Positions 5,626-62,996 of a DNA stretch of 64,000 nt are shown here, piece by piece. The DNA is taken from NCBI GenBank assembly GCA_964503955.1, contig CAZDCG010000001.1, positions 237,804-301,803 on the forward strand. The letters run 5' to 3'. The DNA is from an uncultured Gammaproteobacteria bacterium (GTDB lineage: Bacteria; Patescibacteriota; Patescibacteriia; VMEV01; CAYQCH01). The notes below the pieces were generated by a model. The model was not told the origin of the DNA and searched no databases. It worked only from the letters and a program-made list of their open reading frames with translations. Every line of letters starts with the position of its first letter. The stretch's first letter is position 1. The position numbers and the translations under genes are program-made.

Positions 5626-5945
5626 ACTCGAAAGTCTCAGACGAGAATCAAAAAAGCCGCAGGATTTTGGTCCGGTACTTTCGCCGAAACGATGACATGT
5701 TTTGCTGAGCACGTCCTCCTCCAAGGGGAGAACGGAACACATCGATCGTCAGCGGAAGATACGCGCGATCCACCTGCCGCTTTGTTGAGAAAAAGAACAT
5801 TCCCCTCACCTCCTTCCATTGATTAACGATAAATCGTTAACTGTAAAAATCATATATTGCCGCAGCATTGCCATCAATAGAACTGTCATCAAAATGCCCT
5901 GACAAACAAAGACCACCCTGTTCAGGTGGTCTCTGGTCGACTGTT

Positions 5946-17927: not shown

Positions 17928-18003
17928 CGCGGGGTAGAGAAATTGGCATCTCGCCAGGCCCATAACCTGGAGATTCCCGGTTCGAGTCCGGGCCCCGCAA
18001 CCA
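17928..18003 (+). tRNA. initiator tRNA-fMet (anticodon CAT), CCA encoded
   Basis: CGCGGGG...CCCCGCA-A-CCA with the C1:A72 mismatch typical of bacterial initiators. Anticodon loop CCCATAA, T-arm CCCGG-TTCGAGT-CCGGG. The D-arm is short (GAG/CTC). Confidence 0.7.
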
Positions 18004-18242
18004 AAAGTGCGCCACGACAAGTGGTGCATTTTTGATTGTGGGTGGACTCGCGGGGATGTTAAGGGGGCAGCGCCCCCTTATATTCCGGGGGTGACAGTGA
18101 ACCTGAGCTTGCGAAGGTGAACGCCAGAGGGGCGCAAGCCCCTATGGAGAGGTCGACGAATGAATTGAGTCGACCGAGAGTCCGGGCCCCGCAACCAAAA
18201 GACCGCCACGTAAGTGGTGGTTTTTTGATTGTGGGTGGACTA
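17984..18242 (+). repeat. two ~65-bp direct repeats (17984-18048 and 18178-18242, ~90% identical), each = last 20 nt of tRNA-fMet + terminator hairpin + GATTGTGGGTGGACT; the 130-bp spacer starts with CGCGGGGA
   Basis: Direct sequence comparison. Each copy carries a CCACG-nnn-AGTGG hairpin plus a T-run. The region between a second CGCGGGG and the second ...CCCCGCAACCA forms a tRNA-like frame holding a ~120-nt insert. Confidence 0.6.
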
Positions 18243-18252
18243 GAACCGGACA

Positions 18253-18325
18253 AGACTCACAGACAAACATTTGTCTGTGATGTCTGCCAAGTCTGCGAGT
18301 CTTAAAAGTCTGTCTATCTAGTCTG
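18253..18325 (+). promoter_or_regulatory. candidate operator module upstream of rhodanese gene: palindrome AGACTCACAGACAAA-cat-TTTGTCTGTGAtGTCT followed by GTCTG half-sites phased ~9 bp
   Basis: GTCTG/GTCT at 18273, 18282, 18291, 18299, 18308 and 18321 (spacing 9, 9, 8, 9, 13). The same module recurs at 60918-61048. Confidence 0.5.
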
Positions 18326-18383
18326 TCTTGAGCGGATTAGATATACTTACCCTGATGCAACCTGTTATTCAATCCGCGAATAT

Positions 18384-18776
18384 ATGTCTGAAAATGTCAC
18401 CCTTATCAACCAGGAGGAATCTGAAAAAGGTCTGCCTGAGCAGCTTCCCTGCGAGGCGCTTTGGCAGCTCGAACATGCCGGCGAGCGTCCCAATATTTTA
18501 GATGTCCGCGAGCAGGATGAATGGGATGCTGGCCATATTGAATGGGCAACGCATCTTCCTCTCAGTAATGTGCGTGAGCAGGTTGAAAAGATTTTTCCAA
18601 ATAAAAATGAATTGATCATCTCCTGCTGCGCTTCCGGCGGACGGTCGGCAAAAGCGGTCGATATCATGAAAGAATTGGGATACACGAATGTCAAAAATTT
18701 AATCGGCGGATACACCGGATACTGCGGCCGCGAAGACAACCCGGAGGAAATGCTTTCCGATGAGGAAGGAGCTTGA
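18384..18776 (+). CDS. rhodanese-domain sulfurtransferase
   Basis: ILDVREQDEWDAGHIEWATHLP...IISCCASGGRSAKAV carries the rhodanese active-site Cys loop. Confidence 0.8.
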   Translation: MSENVTLINQEESEKGLPEQLPCEALWQLEHAGERPNILDVREQDEWDAGHIEWATHLPLSNVREQVEKIFPNKNELIISCCASGGRSAKAVDIMKELGYTNVKNLIGGYTGYCGREDNPEEMLSDEEGA

Positions 18777-18835
18777 CTCAAGACTAACTAGACTAGCTAG
18801 TTGAGCCAGACGAAGTCCGGCAACGTTTATAACTT

Positions 18836-19765
18836 ATGCATTGGTTCTTTGACGCCATCATTTTCGGATACCTTTTGTTTTGCTTTCCGGCTGTTTACTG
18901 GCTCGCCACCGGAATGAGAAAACGCATTTCCCCCCGTATGGCGGGCATCATCACCTTCTGGCTGATTGCAGGATGGATTACTATTTTTTACGGCAGTTTT
19001 GTTGAGCCGAGAATGATTGTGGAACATGAACAGGAAATCGAACTGATCCAAGGAGACGATCAGCCGTTTACCATTGCCGTGCTTTCTGATTTGCATGTCG
19101 GTCCGTATAGAAAAGAACATTCAATCATGCGTCTGGTTGAAAAGATTGAAGAACGGAATCCGGATGCTGTTGTTCTGCTTGGAGATTTTGTGTACAAATC
19201 AGCCGAAAGCCTGCCTGAGCTCTCCCCTCTCTACTTCCTCAGCGAGTCATATCCTGTTTTTGCCGTTCTTGGAAACCATGATTACGACTTGTCCGGCAAC
19301 CAAAAAGAACCGAATGATGAACTGGCCGTAAAGGTACGCGCCGCACTAAAAACGCTTGGCGTCACTGTCTTGGAAAATGACGGGCTTCCAATTGCAAATG
19401 GCAGGCTGTACCTTGCCGGCCTGCAGGAAATCTGGACGCATCGAACCGATATCGATGCTGCATTGCAAACCAATATCGAAGGCCTGCCCGTGATCGCTCT
19501 CGCACATAACCCTGATACGGTGGCCGCCTACACGGAACGCCACGATATCGCTCTGACACTTTCCGGGCATACGCATGGAGGACAGATCCGTCTTCCCTTC
19601 ATTGGACCCGCGGGCATCATTCCAACCGAGCTTGGCCAGAAAATCGATAAAGGATTGTTTACGATTAACAATCATCAAGTCCTCATCACTTCAGGCGTTG
19701 GCGAGAGCGGCCCTCGCGCGCGGCTTTTCAATCCGCCTGAAATCATTTACCTGACCATCAAATAA
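18836..19765 (+). CDS. membrane-anchored metallophosphoesterase (calcineurin-like, YkuE/MPP family)
   Basis: N-terminal TM helices and the MPP motifs DLHVGP, GDFV, GNHD, GHTHGG. Confidence 0.8.
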   Translation: MHWFFDAIIFGYLLFCFPAVYWLATGMRKRISPRMAGIITFWLIAGWITIFYGSFVEPRMIVEHEQEIELIQGDDQPFTIAVLSDLHVGPYRKEHSIMRLVEKIEERNPDAVVLLGDFVYKSAESLPELSPLYFLSESYPVFAVLGNHDYDLSGNQKEPNDELAVKVRAALKTLGVTVLENDGLPIANGRLYLAGLQEIWTHRTDIDAALQTNIEGLPVIALAHNPDTVAAYTERHDIALTLSGHTHGGQIRLPFIGPAGIIPTELGQKIDKGLFTINNHQVLITSGVGESGPRARLFNPPEIIYLTIK

Positions 19766-19806: not shown

Positions 19807-20062
19807 ATTGATGTCTGCCGGGGGATCGAGTGAACCGGCAGTGGGAGTAAGATCTCAGAGCGCGTGGGGAAGCGCGCCTTTCAATCTCCACCAGCAGAAA
19901 CGATCTGCTCTCCCTTGCCCACCGTAGGAGGCCACTGTGAGCGGTTTCTTTTTAGCAAGTCTGGAGTATTTGGTCAAACGACCGTAAAACGTTGACAAAA
20001 GGCGTTTTGAATGGCATTATGGAATTCAGACGCATACCTGTGCGTCTTTGTTTTCATATCAT

Positions 20063-46258: not shown

Positions 46259-46288
46259 TCAACCAAGCTGAGTGATCGGGTGGAAAAT

Positions 46289-46458
46289 CTGAAAAACTGT
46301 CACTGAATTTTCGTGAACGGGTTAACGAGTTCATGCGTTAACGGGTTTAGCTGCCCCCTTCACAACTCGTTAACACGTTAACCCGGGAACACGTTAACTC
46401 AAACACATACGATCCACTTGGTCGGGTACCCATGGAAAAACTTAAAACCTGAAAAACT
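46289..46458. repeat. ~150-bp element bounded by 10-bp direct repeats CTGAAAAACT (46289, 46449) containing five GTTAAC palindromes and terminal inverted CGGGTTAAC / GTTAACCCGG
   Basis: GTTAAC at 46321, 46337, 46369, 46377 and 46393. Inverted ends at 46318-46326 and 46377-46386. Direct repeats were read by eye. Confidence 0.45.
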
Positions 46459-46513
46459 TAAAAAAGCGAAAGCCGCGGGATCCCTAGTTAAAGGATAACC
46501 GCGGCCTCTTTGT

Positions 46514-52011: not shown

Positions 52012-52107
52012 GGATATCGATATACTGTTGCTACTGAAATCCGCAGACGTACAGGTCTATCTGTCGTCTGTGTTTATTTGCGCCGATTCCAGCTAACTCT
52101 AACTTGT

Positions 52108-59254: not shown

Positions 59255-59284
59255 AAATCAAAAGACAGGCATTCGCCTGTCTGT
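59255..59284 (-). terminator. terminator after small gene 59311-59559
   Basis: AGACAGGC-attc-GCCTGTCT hairpin with a T-run on the minus strand. Confidence 0.5.
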
Positions 59285-60003: not shown

Positions 60004-60864
60004 CTACTTCTGGCAATTCCTGCAAAAATGCGTTCCACGGCCTGCAATGACGCGCTTTTCGATGAAATCGTCACCACAGCGCAAACATCGCTCGCCCGCG
60101 CGGTTATAAACCCGCAAATGTTTATAAAAACCGCCTTTCCGGCCCGACGCATCCACAAAATTGGAAAAGGTTGTCCCGCGCTTTAAGACGGCAGCCTCAA
60201 GCACCATGGTCAAAGACCGGAAGAGCCGCTTCTGTTCCGCAGGCGAAAGAGAGGCCAATGACCGCCCGGGAAGGATTCTTGCCCGATGCAGAATTTCATC
60301 CGCGTAAATATTTCCTACGCCCGCGATATAGCGCTGATTTAGCAAAAAAGCTTTCACCTCTCCGCGCCGGTTTTTCAGCAATGACGCGAACTGCTCCCAG
60401 GAAAACGGTTCTGCAATCGGATCGATTCCATAGCCGCGCAGATAACCTTCATATTGCTCAGGCCCGACCAACTTGATCCAGCCAAACGTACGGATATCGT
60501 TGAAGTAAATATTCGTACCGTCCGCCAAGGTGATACGGACATGCGTATGCTTATTCGGCAATGATTCCGTGCTCGCCGACGGATGCCCGCCGACCACGAT
60601 TCCTCCAGGAACTTCGCAAATCACCTGCCCGGTCATTTTTAAATGCATGAGCATGCGTTTGTCTCCATAGGCCAGCTCAAAAATGAGCAGCTTTCCTTTT
60701 CGCAGAACCGCTTCAAAACGATTGAGGCAAAGGACTTGTTTCATGTCTTCCGGATCGCTCAAGACGCACTTTCCCGTATAAAACTCAATATCCCGGATCC
60801 CCTTTCCAAGGATGAGATATTGCAAGTCTCTTCGGATTGTTTCTACTTCGGGTAATTCGGGCAT
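60004..60864 (-). CDS. mutM: formamidopyrimidine-DNA glycosylase
   Basis: N-terminal MPELPEVE catalytic Pro, H2TH domain, and C-terminal zinc finger CLRCGDDFIEKRVIAGRGTHFCRNCQ. Confidence 0.85.
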   Translation of the reverse strand: MPELPEVETIRRDLQYLILGKGIRDIEFYTGKCVLSDPEDMKQVLCLNRFEAVLRKGKLLIFELAYGDKRMLMHLKMTGQVICEVPGGIVVGGHPSASTESLPNKHTHVRITLADGTNIYFNDIRTFGWIKLVGPEQYEGYLRGYGIDPIAEPFSWEQFASLLKNRRGEVKAFLLNQRYIAGVGNIYADEILHRARILPGRSLASLSPAEQKRLFRSLTMVLEAAVLKRGTTFSNFVDASGRKGGFYKHLRVYNRAGERCLRCGDDFIEKRVIAGRGTHFCRNCQK

Positions 60865-60917
60865 GGCATTTTGTATAAGCATTCTGCGGAGAATCCAGCT
60901 GAAACTTCCGCAGAATG

Positions 60918-61048
60918 CAGACATTTCAGACTTGCCAGACTCTCAGACAAAACGCCGGTTTGAAGCAGATCTTAAGCCATCAAAGCCGCTCTGTAAAGAA
61001 AGACTCACAGACAACCAGGTCTGTGAGTCTGAAAGGTCTGTACGTCTA
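60918..61048. promoter_or_regulatory. candidate operator module upstream of mutM: four CAGAC half-sites phased 9-9-8 bp plus perfect palindrome AGACTCACAGAC-aaccag-GTCTGTGAGTCT
   Basis: CAGAC at 60918, 60927, 60936 and 60944. Palindrome at 61001-61030. GTCTG/GTCTA at 61036 and 61044. It mirrors the 18253-18325 module when oriented toward the downstream gene. Confidence 0.5.
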
Positions 61049-61054
61049 ACAAGA

Positions 61055-62536
61055 CTATAATTCAAGGCTTCCGTAATGGAAGGCCATGAACACCTTGTAT
61101 CCATCTCCCTGAGGGACAAGCGCCACCCCTGCGCCAACACTATTCCAATCTTCATGATAAATGGTCCGGTAATGCGATCCATTATAAGAGGCTTCTGAAA
61201 GGTAGAAAGCAAGCGTATTGTCCATGGCTTTCTTTATCTGCTCATTGGTCGCGCCTGAAGCATAATCCCAGGAGATATTTTCCGTGAAGTAATTCGACTT
61301 CCATCCATCTTCGCTGTAGCGCTCAGTGAAATCAAGCCCCTTTGCGTCAATCCATTGATGCATGCTCTTGCCGTCCGGACGGTCGTGGCTTGTGACTCCG
61401 CTCTTGGCCATATATTCAGCCCACTCCGTTGCCGTTGCGCGCCAGCGGTCATCGAGCACAAGCAGGCGCAGCCCCTGCTTTGCGCGAAGTTCATTGATCT
61501 TTGAAAGCCAATATTGATTCAACAGATCCAAATCGATCCCCGCTGGAACAGAAGAGTCAGGCAAGAGCTCTTTTTTCTCCTCCTTGACCGGTGTGGATGT
61601 TTTCTTGTCGGTGATCACGTACTTCTCAAATTCTCCAGCCCCGATCTGCTCAAGATCCTTATTCGTAATACCAAGACTCAACTCGCGCATGATGCGGTAT
61701 GCCTCTTCCCCGTCTTTCAGATAATGCAAGGTAAGTTTTTCAGGATGAACATAGTAGGCCTCGCCATGCGCTTGCACTTTCAACACGATTCTTCCCTTGA
61801 TATTCACCAGGACTGACTTGTCGCCTTTCATCGCACGGTCCAGATCGGTATTGGAGATGCCAAGTCCAAAGGAGCGCATCATTTCATACGCGGTCGCGCC
61901 GTCTTTCATGTAAAAGCGCGTGCCTTTCTCGGGGTGCACATACCACGCTTCTCCGTTCTTCTCGACTTGCAAAAGAATATGTCCTTTGACGCGCTCCCTT
62001 AATACTTCTTTTGGCGGCTTGGCTAGCTTCTTGGCAGCTTCTTTCTCCACAAGCGCGCGCTCCTGCTCTTTTAGCAGCTTTTCCTTTTCAGCGAGCTTTC
62101 GTGCATACTCCTCCTCGCTTTTTAATTTTTCCTGCTCCTTGATTTTCTCGTAGCTTTCGTTTTTGACTGTTTCTTTCTTCACATCAGTTGAGCCGTTCTT
62201 TGACGTGATCGAAAGAAAATCCTGCCAGACAAAACCTTTGGTTCCGTCTGAAAGCTGAATCTTATACCAGCCGTCCGCTTCGCCTAAGATCGTTACTGAT
62301 GTTCCTCCGGGAACGGTACGAACCACATTGGAATCCATGCATGTGCGGTCGCGCATATTGACCCCGCTTTTGATTTGCCCGGTCCAGTTCACGGGCGTGA
62401 CCGGGTAATTGCAGTCGATAGTGGCCAATGCCGATGACGGCATGGAGAGCCCGGCAGCCAAAACGATTGCCACGCTGAGAAGAGAAAGACGCGCTTTCAT
62501 AAAAGATGTGTTAAAGACCTTCTTAGTATAAAACAA
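61055..62536 (-). CDS. secreted SH3b-domain / CAP (SCP/PR-1-like) domain protein with two internal ~48-aa repeats
   Basis: A signal peptide, an SH3b domain (NMRDRTCMDSNVVRTVPGGTSVTILGEADGWYKIQLSDGTKGFVW), repeats GHILLQVEKNGEAWYVHPEKGTRFYMKDGATAYEMMRSFGLGISNTDL and GRIVLKVQAHGEAYYVHPEKLTLHYLKDGEEAYRIMRELSLGITNKDL, and a C-terminal CAP domain. Confidence 0.6.
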   Translation of the reverse strand: MFYTKKVFNTSFMKARLSLLSVAIVLAAGLSMPSSALATIDCNYPVTPVNWTGQIKSGVNMRDRTCMDSNVVRTVPGGTSVTILGEADGWYKIQLSDGTKGFVWQDFLSITSKNGSTDVKKETVKNESYEKIKEQEKLKSEEEYARKLAEKEKLLKEQERALVEKEAAKKLAKPPKEVLRERVKGHILLQVEKNGEAWYVHPEKGTRFYMKDGATAYEMMRSFGLGISNTDLDRAMKGDKSVLVNIKGRIVLKVQAHGEAYYVHPEKLTLHYLKDGEEAYRIMRELSLGITNKDLEQIGAGEFEKYVITDKKTSTPVKEEKKELLPDSSVPAGIDLDLLNQYWLSKINELRAKQGLRLLVLDDRWRATATEWAEYMAKSGVTSHDRPDGKSMHQWIDAKGLDFTERYSEDGWKSNYFTENISWDYASGATNEQIKKAMDNTLAFYLSEASYNGSHYRTIYHEDWNSVGAGVALVPQGDGYKVFMAFHYGSLEL

Positions 62537-62585
62537 GCTCGTATTGAAAGAAATAGAACCTTTTCATTTCGAAAACGATACTCTA

Positions 62586-62614
62586 TTGACAAATAAACCT
62601 GACTGTACTATCAT
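62586..62614 (+). promoter_or_regulatory. strong sigma-70-like promoter (TTGACA-17-TATCAT) ~380 nt upstream of response-regulator gene
   Basis: TTGACA at 62586-62591, a 17-nt spacer and TATCAT at 62609-62614. The downstream ~380-nt GC-rich region has no credible ORF. Confidence 0.45.
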
Positions 62615-62996
62615 CGATTTTCGCGTTAAGGAACGTCCTTTGCGCGACGGGATCTGCAACCCGTGGTTTGCAATTCGCGCCCAGGCTTTCGAACCACCCT
62701 CGGAGCCGCCCATCTGCAGAGAGGAGCGCGTATGCGCTTGATCGGCAGAAGCACCTACTACTAGACGAGGCTGTAGCCACAGCCTCCCCAACCCCAGCAC
62801 ACAGGAGGAGATCCGTGCAGTACCGCTGCAGAGATCCGACCTGACCACCGACCCGGTTCGATCCGTTGCCGCCCCTCCGGCCGCGACGCGTCAGCCGGGT
62901 CTTCATTTTGCTTGACAAGAGGGGGATAGCATGACAGGATTGGCCCGTCGGATATGTCCGGCTGCCCGGGAAGGGGGACCATGGTGAATCGTTTAC

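What the first reader, a model, noticed from the sequence alone, without database searches (positions are those of the whole stretch)
18253..18325. Conserved cis-regulatory module (palindrome + 9-bp-phased GTCTG half-sites) upstream of the rhodanese/phosphoesterase genes
A near-perfect 15-bp-arm palindrome AGACTCACAGACAAA-cat-TTTGTCTGTGA(t)GTCT is followed by GTCTG/GTCT repeats at 18273, 18282, 18291, 18299, 18308 and 18321. The 9-9-8-9 spacing is close to one helical turn, as expected for a multimeric DNA-binding protein on one face. The same architecture, oriented the same way relative to the downstream gene, is found before mutM (60918-61048). A CAGAC-N6-GTCTA plus GTCTG arrangement sits before rplS (52044-52070), and AGAC...GTCT inverted repeats recur at 5632, 20025 and 59264. 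This suggests a regulon controlled by an unidentified factor, or an unusual promoter element.
Basis: seen in the sequence. Interest (0 to 1): 0.65.

Follow-up and report, generated by a model that had tools for sequence, protein, structure and literature searches.

The report
Phased GTCTG repeat arrays at two promoters
Two intergenic regions of an uncultured candidate-phyla-radiation bacterium carry the same hairpin-forming palindrome flanked by rows of GTCTG spaced 8-9 bases apart; these are most likely docking sites for an unidentified DNA-binding protein that controls the rhodanese and mutM promoters, an ordinary kind of element with an unknown partner.

Summary
Runs of three or more GTCT units spaced 8-9 bp occur three times in 64 kb, against 0.005 expected. 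They lie at A (18253-18329, upstream of rhodanese) and B (60918-61048, between the SH3/CAP gene and mutM). The two loci share a 26/28-identical palindrome.

Mean spacing is 8.6 bp, so successive units spiral around the helix and do not sit on one face. At B the palindrome also reads as the intrinsic terminator of the SH3/CAP gene. The mutM promoter (TTTACA-17-TAAGAT; the -10 hexamer recurs in relatives) sits exactly between two diverging 4-unit arrays. At A the last units occupy the -35 position of a TATACT promoter.

Both modules are lineage-specific insertions. Syntenic loci in relatives (46-61% protein identity) lack them. One relative has GTCTGG x4 at 10-11 bp spacing next to mutM/hpf.

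The best reading is an iterated operator for an unidentified oligomerising regulator (confidence 0.45). Rivals are a dispersed palindromic repeat cassette, an RNA-level element, and a mobile-element scar. No regulon can be shown from 64 kb. Interest is modest.

The parts
18253..18285 (.). Palindrome A: AGACTCACAGACAAA-ca-TTTGTCTGTGAtGTCT. It consists of two inverted pairs of GTCT units. It shares 26 of 28 arm bases with palindrome B and has no T-tail on either strand.
18273..18329 (+). Array A: GTCT(G) units at 18273, 18282, 18291, 18299, 18308, 18312, 18321 and 18325 on the + strand. They run into the -35 position of the rhodanese promoter.
18342..18347 (+). TATACT, a -10-like hexamer 37 nt before the rhodanese ATG. 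The same hexamer serves the rplS promoter. The -35 position (18319-18324, TAGTCT) is a poor match and is occupied by a GTCTG unit.
   Evidence: sequence; the scan finds no better + strand promoter
18384..19765 (+). Downstream genes: a single-domain rhodanese (18384-18776) and a YaeI-like metallophosphoesterase (18836-19765). The pair is syntenic in relatives.
18777..18811 (-). Weak third GTCT-rich site in the spacer between the rhodanese and phosphoesterase genes: AGAC x2 at 9 bp plus CAGAC. It is not significant on its own.
61001..61030 (-). Palindrome B: AGACTCACAGAC-N6-GTCTGTGAGTCT. On the - strand it is a 12-bp stem with a 6-nt loop followed by TTCTTT, 24 nt after the stop codon of the SH3/CAP gene, so it reads as that gene's intrinsic terminator. 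It ends 4 nt before the mutM -35 hexamer.
61019..61048 (+). Array B+: GTCTG, GTCTG, GTCTG, GTCTA at 61019/27/36/44. It is followed by AGAC (61052) and TATAAT (61056-61061) on the + strand, the same order as in A, and is antisense to the flanking genes.
60969..60997 (-). Predicted mutM promoter TTTACA-17-TAAGAT, inside the 52-bp gap between the arrays. The dyad centre of the two arrays (60983.5) falls in its spacer. The TAAGAT -10 recurs upstream of mutM in relatives L007, L251 and L380.
60918..60948 (-). Array B-: GTCTG x4 on the - strand with spacing 8-9-9, at about +14 to +44 of the predicted mutM transcript.
60880..60917 (-). Hairpin CATTCTGCGGA...TCCGCAGAATG between array B- and the mutM ATG at 60864.
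60004..60864 (-). mutM (formamidopyrimidine-DNA glycosylase). The protein starts MPELPEVE at 60864.

Best explanation
A and B are iterated operators: DNA binding sites for one unidentified sequence-specific protein that recognises (A/T)GTCTG.

Proposed mechanism.
- The protein binds as a cooperative oligomer.
- It nucleates on the inverted pair of double units (the palindrome) and spreads over the neighbouring direct repeats.
- With 8.6 bp between units, the oligomer would wind around the DNA rather than sit on one face.
- At A it covers roughly -22 to -100 of the rhodanese/phosphoesterase promoter, including the -35 position.
- At B it covers both flanks of the mutM promoter, at -39 to -93 and +14 to +44.
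- Binding would therefore set the activity of these two promoters. Occlusion or trapping at mutM is the more likely mode. Either occlusion or -35 replacement (activation) is possible at the rhodanese promoter.

What is shown: the arrays are non-random, only the cores are conserved, and their positions relative to the promoter-like hexamers and genes are as described.

What is inferred: that a protein binds them, that it oligomerises, the sign of regulation, and the link to an oxidative or stationary-phase stress theme (MutM, rhodanese; the hibernation-factor gene hpf in relative L251).
For: - Non-random occurrence: 3 arrays against 0.005 expected, and nowhere else in the window.
- GTCT is present in all 21 units by the way the units were picked, and the next base is G in 14 of the 21. 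The flanking positions are nearly random and TRF finds no tandem repeat. The arrays therefore do not look like simple copies of one repeat unit.
- Both arrays sit at promoters. Units replace the -35 at A. The mutM promoter lies at the dyad centre between diverging arrays at B. Its TAAGAT -10 matches the mutM promoters of relatives.
- The distance between the inverted halves differs (8 against 6 bp), and unit spacing varies between 8 and 9 bp. This fits loosely coupled protomers better than a rigid dimer operator.
- A related genome has GTCTGG x4 at 10/10/11 bp in the mutM-hpf spacer, so the same core recurs at the same gene cluster.
- No integrase, transposase or Rep gene was found among the window's annotated ORFs, and gene order matches relatives.
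Against: - There are only two sites, and no candidate regulator was found. The PadR, TrmB-like, HU and ECF sigma proteins in the window have no known link to this motif.
- The small ORFs scanned gave no ribbon-helix-helix or other DNA-binding hit.
- The module is absent from orthologous promoters of six relatives.
- The 26/28 identity of the palindromes, including non-core bases, is more than operators usually need and suggests common descent by duplication.
- The palindrome at B already has a sufficient explanation as a terminator.
- Promoter calls are consensus matches only; 0.7 such matches are expected by chance in that region.
Confidence: 0.45

Rival explanations
1. A dispersed palindromic repeat cassette, similar to REP or MITE elements, spread or was duplicated in this lineage. 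It consists of a hairpin plus subterminal GTCTG repeats, possibly carrying a -10 element. Copies landed in intergenic DNA. One of them now serves as the terminator of the SH3/CAP gene. The GTCTG cores would be what the mobilising enzyme or host factor recognises. No dedicated regulon exists.
For: - Both modules are insertions relative to short, simple intergenic regions in syntenic relatives.
- The palindromes are 26/28 identical, including 15 consecutive identical bases, AAGACTCACAGACAA.
- A+ and B+ have the same order: palindrome, array, TATA(C/A)T.
- B as a whole is a 130-bp element with 4-unit inverted ends.
- A lies next to a 194-bp rearrangement of the tRNA-fMet 3' end.
Against: - No transposase or RAYT-like gene in the window.
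- No target-site duplication or defined ends were seen.
- The array spacers differ completely between copies while the cores are intact. This needs long-term selection on the cores, which is not expected of a decaying mobile element.
- There are only two copies in 64 kb.
- Searches of phage and plasmid collections, one genome per species and viral contigs found no further copies.
Confidence: 0.25
2. The element acts at the RNA level. GUCUG repeats in the mutM 5' UTR, together with the adjacent hairpins, bind an RNA-binding protein or fold alternatively to control termination, stability or translation. This would resemble TRAP or HutP, which read spaced triplets.
For: - Array B- lies downstream of the predicted mutM promoter, on the sense strand, and is followed by a hairpin before the AUG.
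- Arrays A and L251 are also on the sense strand and are followed by hairpins.
- Palindrome B is a terminator-like RNA hairpin.
- The folds are much more stable than shuffled sequence, with z from -3.5 to -6.2.
Against: - At A the array lies upstream of the only -10-like element and directly after a terminator, so it is probably not transcribed with rhodanese.
- Array B+ is antisense.
- The hairpins after the arrays lack U-tracts and do not cover the start codons.
- No Rfam family matches.
- The low folding energies follow trivially from the inverted repeats.
- No relatives carry the element, so covariation cannot be tested.
Confidence: 0.1
3. A is a scar of a mobile element integrated at tRNA-fMet, and the GTCTG repeats are arm-type integrase or excisionase binding sites.
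For: - A 65-bp direct repeat of the tRNA-fMet 3' end plus its terminator lies immediately upstream of A.
- Excisionases such as Xis and Cox bind short phased direct repeats (established knowledge).
Against: - No integrase or other mobile-element gene in the window, and gene order is identical to relatives.
- B is not next to a tRNA gene.
- The segment between the repeats is only 129 bp.
Confidence: 0.06
4. A chance clustering of a common pentamer.
For: GTCT itself is not over-represented in the window: 398 GTCT plus AGAC, against about 500 for equal base use (my arithmetic).
Against: Three arrays observed against 0.005 expected, and the same 15-mer at both loci.
Confidence: 0.01

Closest known systems
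Iterated operators of ribbon-helix-helix repressors: omega of pSM19035 (7-bp heptads in direct and inverted order), ParR/parC of plasmid R1 (two sets of five iterons flanking the promoter core), and CcdA/RelB-type antitoxin operators
   Same: - Short, non-palindromic units are repeated many times in both orientations at sub-helical-turn spacing.
- Only the core of each unit is conserved.
- The arrays overlap or flank a promoter. At B the promoter sits between two sets of units, as in parC.
   Different: - The unit (GTCTG), the spacing (8-9 bp, irregular) and the host (a chromosome of a candidate-phyla-radiation bacterium) are all different.
- No ribbon-helix-helix gene was identified.
- The targets are housekeeping genes, not plasmid maintenance genes.
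- This comparison rests on my knowledge of those systems and was not tested here.
MetJ met-box operators (tandem 8-bp AGACGTCT boxes)
   Same: The core tetranucleotides AGAC/GTCT are the same, the period is about 8 bp, and there are 2-5 or more adjacent units, implying a protein array that winds around the DNA.
   Different: - Met boxes are contiguous palindromic 8-mers in strict register. Here each unit is a single GTCTG half-site, with 8 or 9 bp steps and unrelated spacers.
- MetJ is confined to Gammaproteobacteria and controls methionine genes.
MraZ boxes (pentamer direct repeats at a 10-bp period upstream of the dcw cluster)
   Same: A pentamer is repeated 3-4 times in direct order. The array in relative L251 (GTCTGG x4 at 10-11 bp) has this geometry.
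   Different: The core sequence differs, the location is not upstream of mraZ, and the window's own arrays have an 8.6-bp period and an inverted part.
Intrinsic (Rho-independent) terminators and REP-like palindromes
   Same: Palindrome B has a 12-bp stem and a T-rich tail just after a stop codon. Other terminator-like hairpins in the window also begin with AGAC and end with GTCT (5910, 20028, 59263).
   Different: Palindrome A has no T-tail and no gene to terminate. Terminators do not explain the flanking phased GTCTG arrays.

Membership tests
MetJ met-box operator | Two to five contiguous 8-bp boxes matching AGACGTCT in strict 8-bp register | tested here: not met
   The units are single GTCTG half-sites with steps of 8 or 9 bp, and no AGACGTCT box is present.
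MetJ met-box operator | A metJ gene is present, the host is gammaproteobacterial, and the targets are methionine genes | tested here: not met
   Homologues carry Patescibacteria/Parcubacteria names. The targets are rhodanese and mutM. No MetJ hit among the ORFs scanned.
Ribbon-helix-helix iteron operator (omega / ParR type) | Arrays of short units in direct and inverted order that overlap or flank a promoter | tested here: met
Ribbon-helix-helix iteron operator (omega / ParR type) | A cognate ribbon-helix-helix protein that binds the units cooperatively | not testable with these tools
   No such gene was found in the 64 kb. The rest of the genome is not available, and binding needs an experiment.
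Intrinsic terminator | A stable stem-loop followed by a T-run, shortly after a stop codon on the coding strand | tested here: met
   Met for palindrome B only: 12-bp stem, tail TTCTTT, 24 nt after the SH3/CAP stop. Palindrome A does not meet it on either strand.
MITE / REP-like dispersed repeat | Many dispersed copies with similar sequence throughout, defined ends, target-site duplication, and a cognate transposase or RAYT | tested here: inconclusive
   Two copies share a 26/28-identical palindrome, but the array spacers are unrelated. No target-site duplication or transposase was seen. Genome-wide copy number is unknown.
parS centromere | A match to the 16-bp palindrome TGTTNCACGTGAAACA | tested here: not met
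   No match with up to 3 mismatches.
Integrase / excisionase arm-type sites at an att site | A duplicated tRNA 3' end with an integrase-bearing element between or beside the repeats | tested here: not met
   The duplication is present, but only 129 bp lie between the repeats. There is no integrase in the window, and B is not at a tRNA gene.
HUH Rep / rolling-circle origin (hairpin plus iterons) | A conserved nick motif in the hairpin loop and a rep gene | tested here: not met
   The loops differ (caaacatttg in A against aaccag in B). No Rep gene was found.
Rigid dimeric palindromic operator (CRP / LexA / LacI type) | Fixed spacing between the inverted half-sites | tested here: not met
   CAGAC and GTCTG are 8 bp apart in A and 6 bp apart in B.

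The most novel reading that the evidence does not exclude
The module is a self-contained cis-regulatory cassette that has been copied within this candidate-phyla-radiation lineage. It consists of a hairpin/terminator, GTCTG iterons and a -10 element, and it recruits a lineage-specific, filament-forming GTCTG-binding protein. If so, it would be a first defined transcription-factor motif and regulon (oxidative or stationary-phase stress: mutM, rhodanese, hpf) in an otherwise uncharacterised group. The cassette would also double as a bidirectional terminator/promoter unit.
Probability: 0.12. Interest if true: 0.6.

Novelty: new member of a known kind. Interest (0 to 1): 0.33.

Why it matters
Candidate-phyla-radiation (Patescibacteria) bacteria have tiny genomes and few recognisable regulators, and to my knowledge few or no cis-regulatory sites in them have been tested experimentally. 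A clear, statistically solid binding-site array gives a concrete handle for finding one of their regulators. The 18253-18329 fragment could serve as bait for a DNA pull-down, and the motif could seed a genome-wide scan. It could also test whether DNA-repair and sulfur/redox genes are co-controlled. If the module turns out to be only a repeat cassette, it still shows how terminators and promoter contexts are remodelled in these genomes. Either way this is an incremental finding, not a new principle.

Tried and rejected
Searches that led nowhere.
1. One genome per species, scanned for the palindrome: only two chance hairpins (a Bacillus-type terminator and an actinobacterial coding region). The source genome is not in that collection.
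They returned 9-bp coding tandem repeats and (GTCT)n microsatellites, with no relative of the module.
3. Three further viral-contig scans gave only chance hits.
4. BLAST of A against phage and plasmid collections: no match.
5. Exact-protein look-ups found the organism only in three Logan runs, on contigs of 4.2 kb or less with identical sequence, so no further genome could be scanned.
6. Phylogenetic footprinting in syntenic contigs of relatives: no module. One found only the GTCTGG x4 array in L251.
7. Literature: no paper links GTCTG direct repeats to a bacterial operator. The Patescibacteria SOS-network paper (PubMed 28618189) is not held.

Explanations considered and rejected.
- parS.
- A DNA-uptake sequence: no over-represented 8-10-mer.
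- A coding repeat: the 8-bp steps break the reading frame.
- Promoters of the ECF sigma factor: no GGAAC -35 element.
- CRP/LexA-type operator: the half-site order and spacing are wrong.
- A replication origin: GC skew is monotonic across the window.
- Known RNA families.

Full report
WHAT IS THERE

Locus A reads aAGACTCACAGACAAAcaTTTGTCTGTGAtGTCTGccaaGTCTGcgaGTCTTaaaaGTCTGTCTatctaGTCTGTCTTgagc (18252-18333). The palindrome has 11 perfectly complementary bases per arm, or 15 with one bulged T. GTCT units start at 18273, 18282, 18291, 18299, 18308, 18312, 18321 and 18325.

Locus B has three parts:
- CAGAC x4 at 60918/27/36/44, which is GTCTG on the - strand;
- a 52-bp gap;
- the palindrome AGACTCACAGAC-aaccag-GTCTGTGAGTCT (61001-61030), whose right arm starts a + strand array at 61019/27/36/44.

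The 15-mer AAGACTCACAGACAA is identical at both loci.

IS IT MORE THAN CHANCE?

- Chains of three or more GTCT units spaced 8 or 9 bp occur three times, with lengths 5, 4 and 4. All are at A and B. Second-order Markov simulations give a mean of 0.005 per window.
- No other 80-bp window holds even five GTCT/AGAC. A holds ten and B holds seven.
- Scanning all 4-mers for arrays of four or more units at 8-11 bp returns almost only GTCT/AGAC.
- Three independent sequencing runs contain an identical locus A, so the sequence is real.
- Across 21 units picked by their GTCT core, the next base is G in 14 and the preceding base is A or T in 18. All other flanking positions are close to random.
- Tandem Repeats Finder does not report the arrays even at score 30. 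They are therefore not simple tandem duplications, and something appears to select for the pentamer.

- Clusters of three or more units within 30 bp outside A and B number four, against about two expected. The rplS leader is one of them, and its units are 11 bp apart.
- 20028 and 59263 are plain hairpins followed by T-runs, like terminators. 5632 is a single everted pair.
- AGAC...GTCT inverted pairs are mildly in excess: 17 outside the modules against 9.5 +/- 3.2. The three intergenic ones that form true hairpins look like ordinary terminator or leader hairpins whose stems happen to begin with AGAC.

CONTEXT

- The window is ordinary chromosome. Its genes include HU, dprA, topA, relA/spoT, a histidine kinase, parB, parA, tRNA-Leu, initiator tRNA-Met, rhodanese, a YaeI-like phosphoesterase, Ser/Thr kinases, an ECF sigma factor, rplS, AhpC, VKOR, pgi, hpf, mutM and an SH3/CAP protein.
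- No integrase, transposase or Rep gene was found.
- The nearest MutM and phosphoesterase homologues are only 61% and 48% identical. Where named, they carry Patescibacteria, Parcubacteria, Komeilibacteria or Uhrbacteria names. The organism is therefore an uncultured candidate-phyla-radiation bacterium.
- It is absent from the one-genome-per-species collection.

PROMOTERS AND TERMINATORS

Locus B.
- The palindrome read on the - strand is a 12-bp stem with a 6-nt loop followed by TTCTTT. It lies 24 nt after the stop codon of the SH3/CAP gene, whose CAP domain runs to residue 483 of 493.
- Relatives have a plain terminator at exactly this place. It is followed by a mutM promoter TTGAT(T/C)-N16-TAAGAT (L007, L251, L380) or -TAAAAT (L006).
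- The window has TTTACA-17-TAAGAT at 60997-60969, the only promoter-like match in the region. It lies inside the 52-bp gap.
- The midpoint between the two 4-unit arrays (60983.5) falls in this promoter's spacer. The mutM promoter is thus bracketed by two diverging arrays: one upstream (-39 to -93, including the palindrome) and one at +14 to +44.
- A further hairpin (60880-60917) precedes the ATG.

Locus A.
- The array follows directly after a terminator copy and ends at a TATACT hexamer (18342-18347), 37 nt before the rhodanese ATG. TATACT is also the rplS -10.
- The -35 position holds a GTCTG unit in place of a TTGACA-like hexamer.
- B read on the + strand has the same order as A: palindrome, array, TATAAT.

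COMPARISON WITH RELATIVES

- Gene order around both loci is conserved in contigs from about six related genomes.
- In those genomes the tRNA-fMet terminator is followed within about 40 nt by the rhodanese start.
- None has a GTCT chain at 8-9 bp. Both modules are therefore lineage-specific insertions of about 80-130 bp.
- The relatives are too distant for this to disprove function (GC 38-53% against 50% here).
- One relative, L251, carries ccGTCTGGattaGTCTGGcgtaGTCTGCtaattGTCTGGcc just after mutM and upstream of the hpf promoter. It is the only GTCTG cluster in that 19-kb locus. The same core thus recurs at the same gene cluster, with 10-11 bp spacing.

HOW IT MOST LIKELY WORKS

The features listed below fit an iterated operator bound cooperatively by an oligomerising protein:
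- cores conserved within variable spacers;
- units in both orientations;
- loose spacing (8 or 9 bp between units, and 8 against 6 bp between the inverted halves);
- placement on or around two promoters.

Mean spacing is 8.6 bp, about 295 degrees per step. The protein would wind around the DNA, as known from my background knowledge for MetJ on 8-bp met boxes and omega on 7-bp heptads. The bracketing of the mutM promoter recalls ParR on parC of plasmid R1.

These are analogies of mechanism only. The defining features of the MetJ system are not met, and no ribbon-helix-helix or other candidate gene was found in the window. I give this reading a confidence of 0.45.

RIVALS

1. A duplicated or mobile palindromic cassette (0.25). 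It is favoured by the insertion status, the 26/28-identical palindromes, the shared part order, and the neighbouring 194-bp rearrangement of the tRNA-fMet 3' end. It is disfavoured by the unrelated spacers and the absence of any mobilising gene or further copies.
2. An RNA-level element (0.10). Array B- is in the predicted mutM 5' UTR and the folds are stable. However, array A lies upstream of its -10 and behind a terminator, B+ is antisense, and no Rfam family matches.
3. An att-site scar with arm-type sites (0.06).
4. Chance (0.01).

VERDICT

This is a real, statistically solid pair of repeat modules at two promoters. Regulation by an unidentified factor is the best reading but is unproven. 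A regulon cannot be claimed from 64 kb. It is a new member of a known kind of element (iterated operators), of modest interest, mainly as an entry point to regulation in candidate-phyla-radiation bacteria.

Noticed in passing
window 18049-18197 (+), with direct repeats 17984-18048 and 18178-18241: A 149-nt element starts CGCGGGG and ends CCCCGCAACCA. These are the same acceptor-stem strands and ACCA tail as the initiator tRNA-Met just upstream (17928-18003). It folds into a closed four-hairpin structure (-69.4 kcal/mol, z = -4.3) and is followed by a second copy of the tRNA's 3' end plus terminator. It has no Rfam or ARAGORN hit and is absent in relatives. It may be a tRNA-like non-coding RNA or an integration scar.
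   Followed up: partly
window 46259-46513: An intergenic region downstream of both flanking genes, the inositol monophosphatase gene (+) and a Ser/Thr kinase gene (-), holds other iterated motifs. (A)CGTTAAC/GTTAAC occurs five times between 46322 and 46395 (TRF period 8), and TGAAAAACT occurs three times (46290, 46434, 46449). This may be another repeat-type binding region.
   Followed up: no
L251 10970-11006: A related candidate-phyla-radiation contig (Logan SRR22808039) has GTCTGG x4 at 10/10/11 bp spacing between mutM and the hibernation-factor gene hpf. It is the only GTCTG cluster in that 19-kb locus.
   Followed up: partly
window 5910-5932, 20028-20047, 59263-59282: Several terminator-like hairpins have stems that begin with AGAC and end with GTCT, followed by a T-run. 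This accounts for part of the mild excess of AGAC...GTCT inverted pairs (21 against 9.5 expected).
   Followed up: partly
window 18777-18835: The spacer between the rhodanese and phosphoesterase genes contains CTCAAGACTAACTAGACTAGCTAGTTGAGCCAGAC. This is AGAC x2 at 9 bp plus CAGAC, partly palindromic, and resembles the end of array A (GTCTTGAG).
   Followed up: no
window 62537-62996: About 460 bp lie between the SH3/CAP gene and a receiver-only response-regulator gene with no convincing ORF. Relatives have a response regulator plus a 131-aa unknown protein here.
   Followed up: no
L034, L060, L062 (IMG/VR contigs of 150-180 kb): Three large viral contigs share a conserved non-tandem array, ACCAGTCTGTATTGTCTGTCC(T/C)GTCTG(C/T)TTGTCTTTTCC. 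They are unrelated in context to the window and were not examined further.
   Followed up: no
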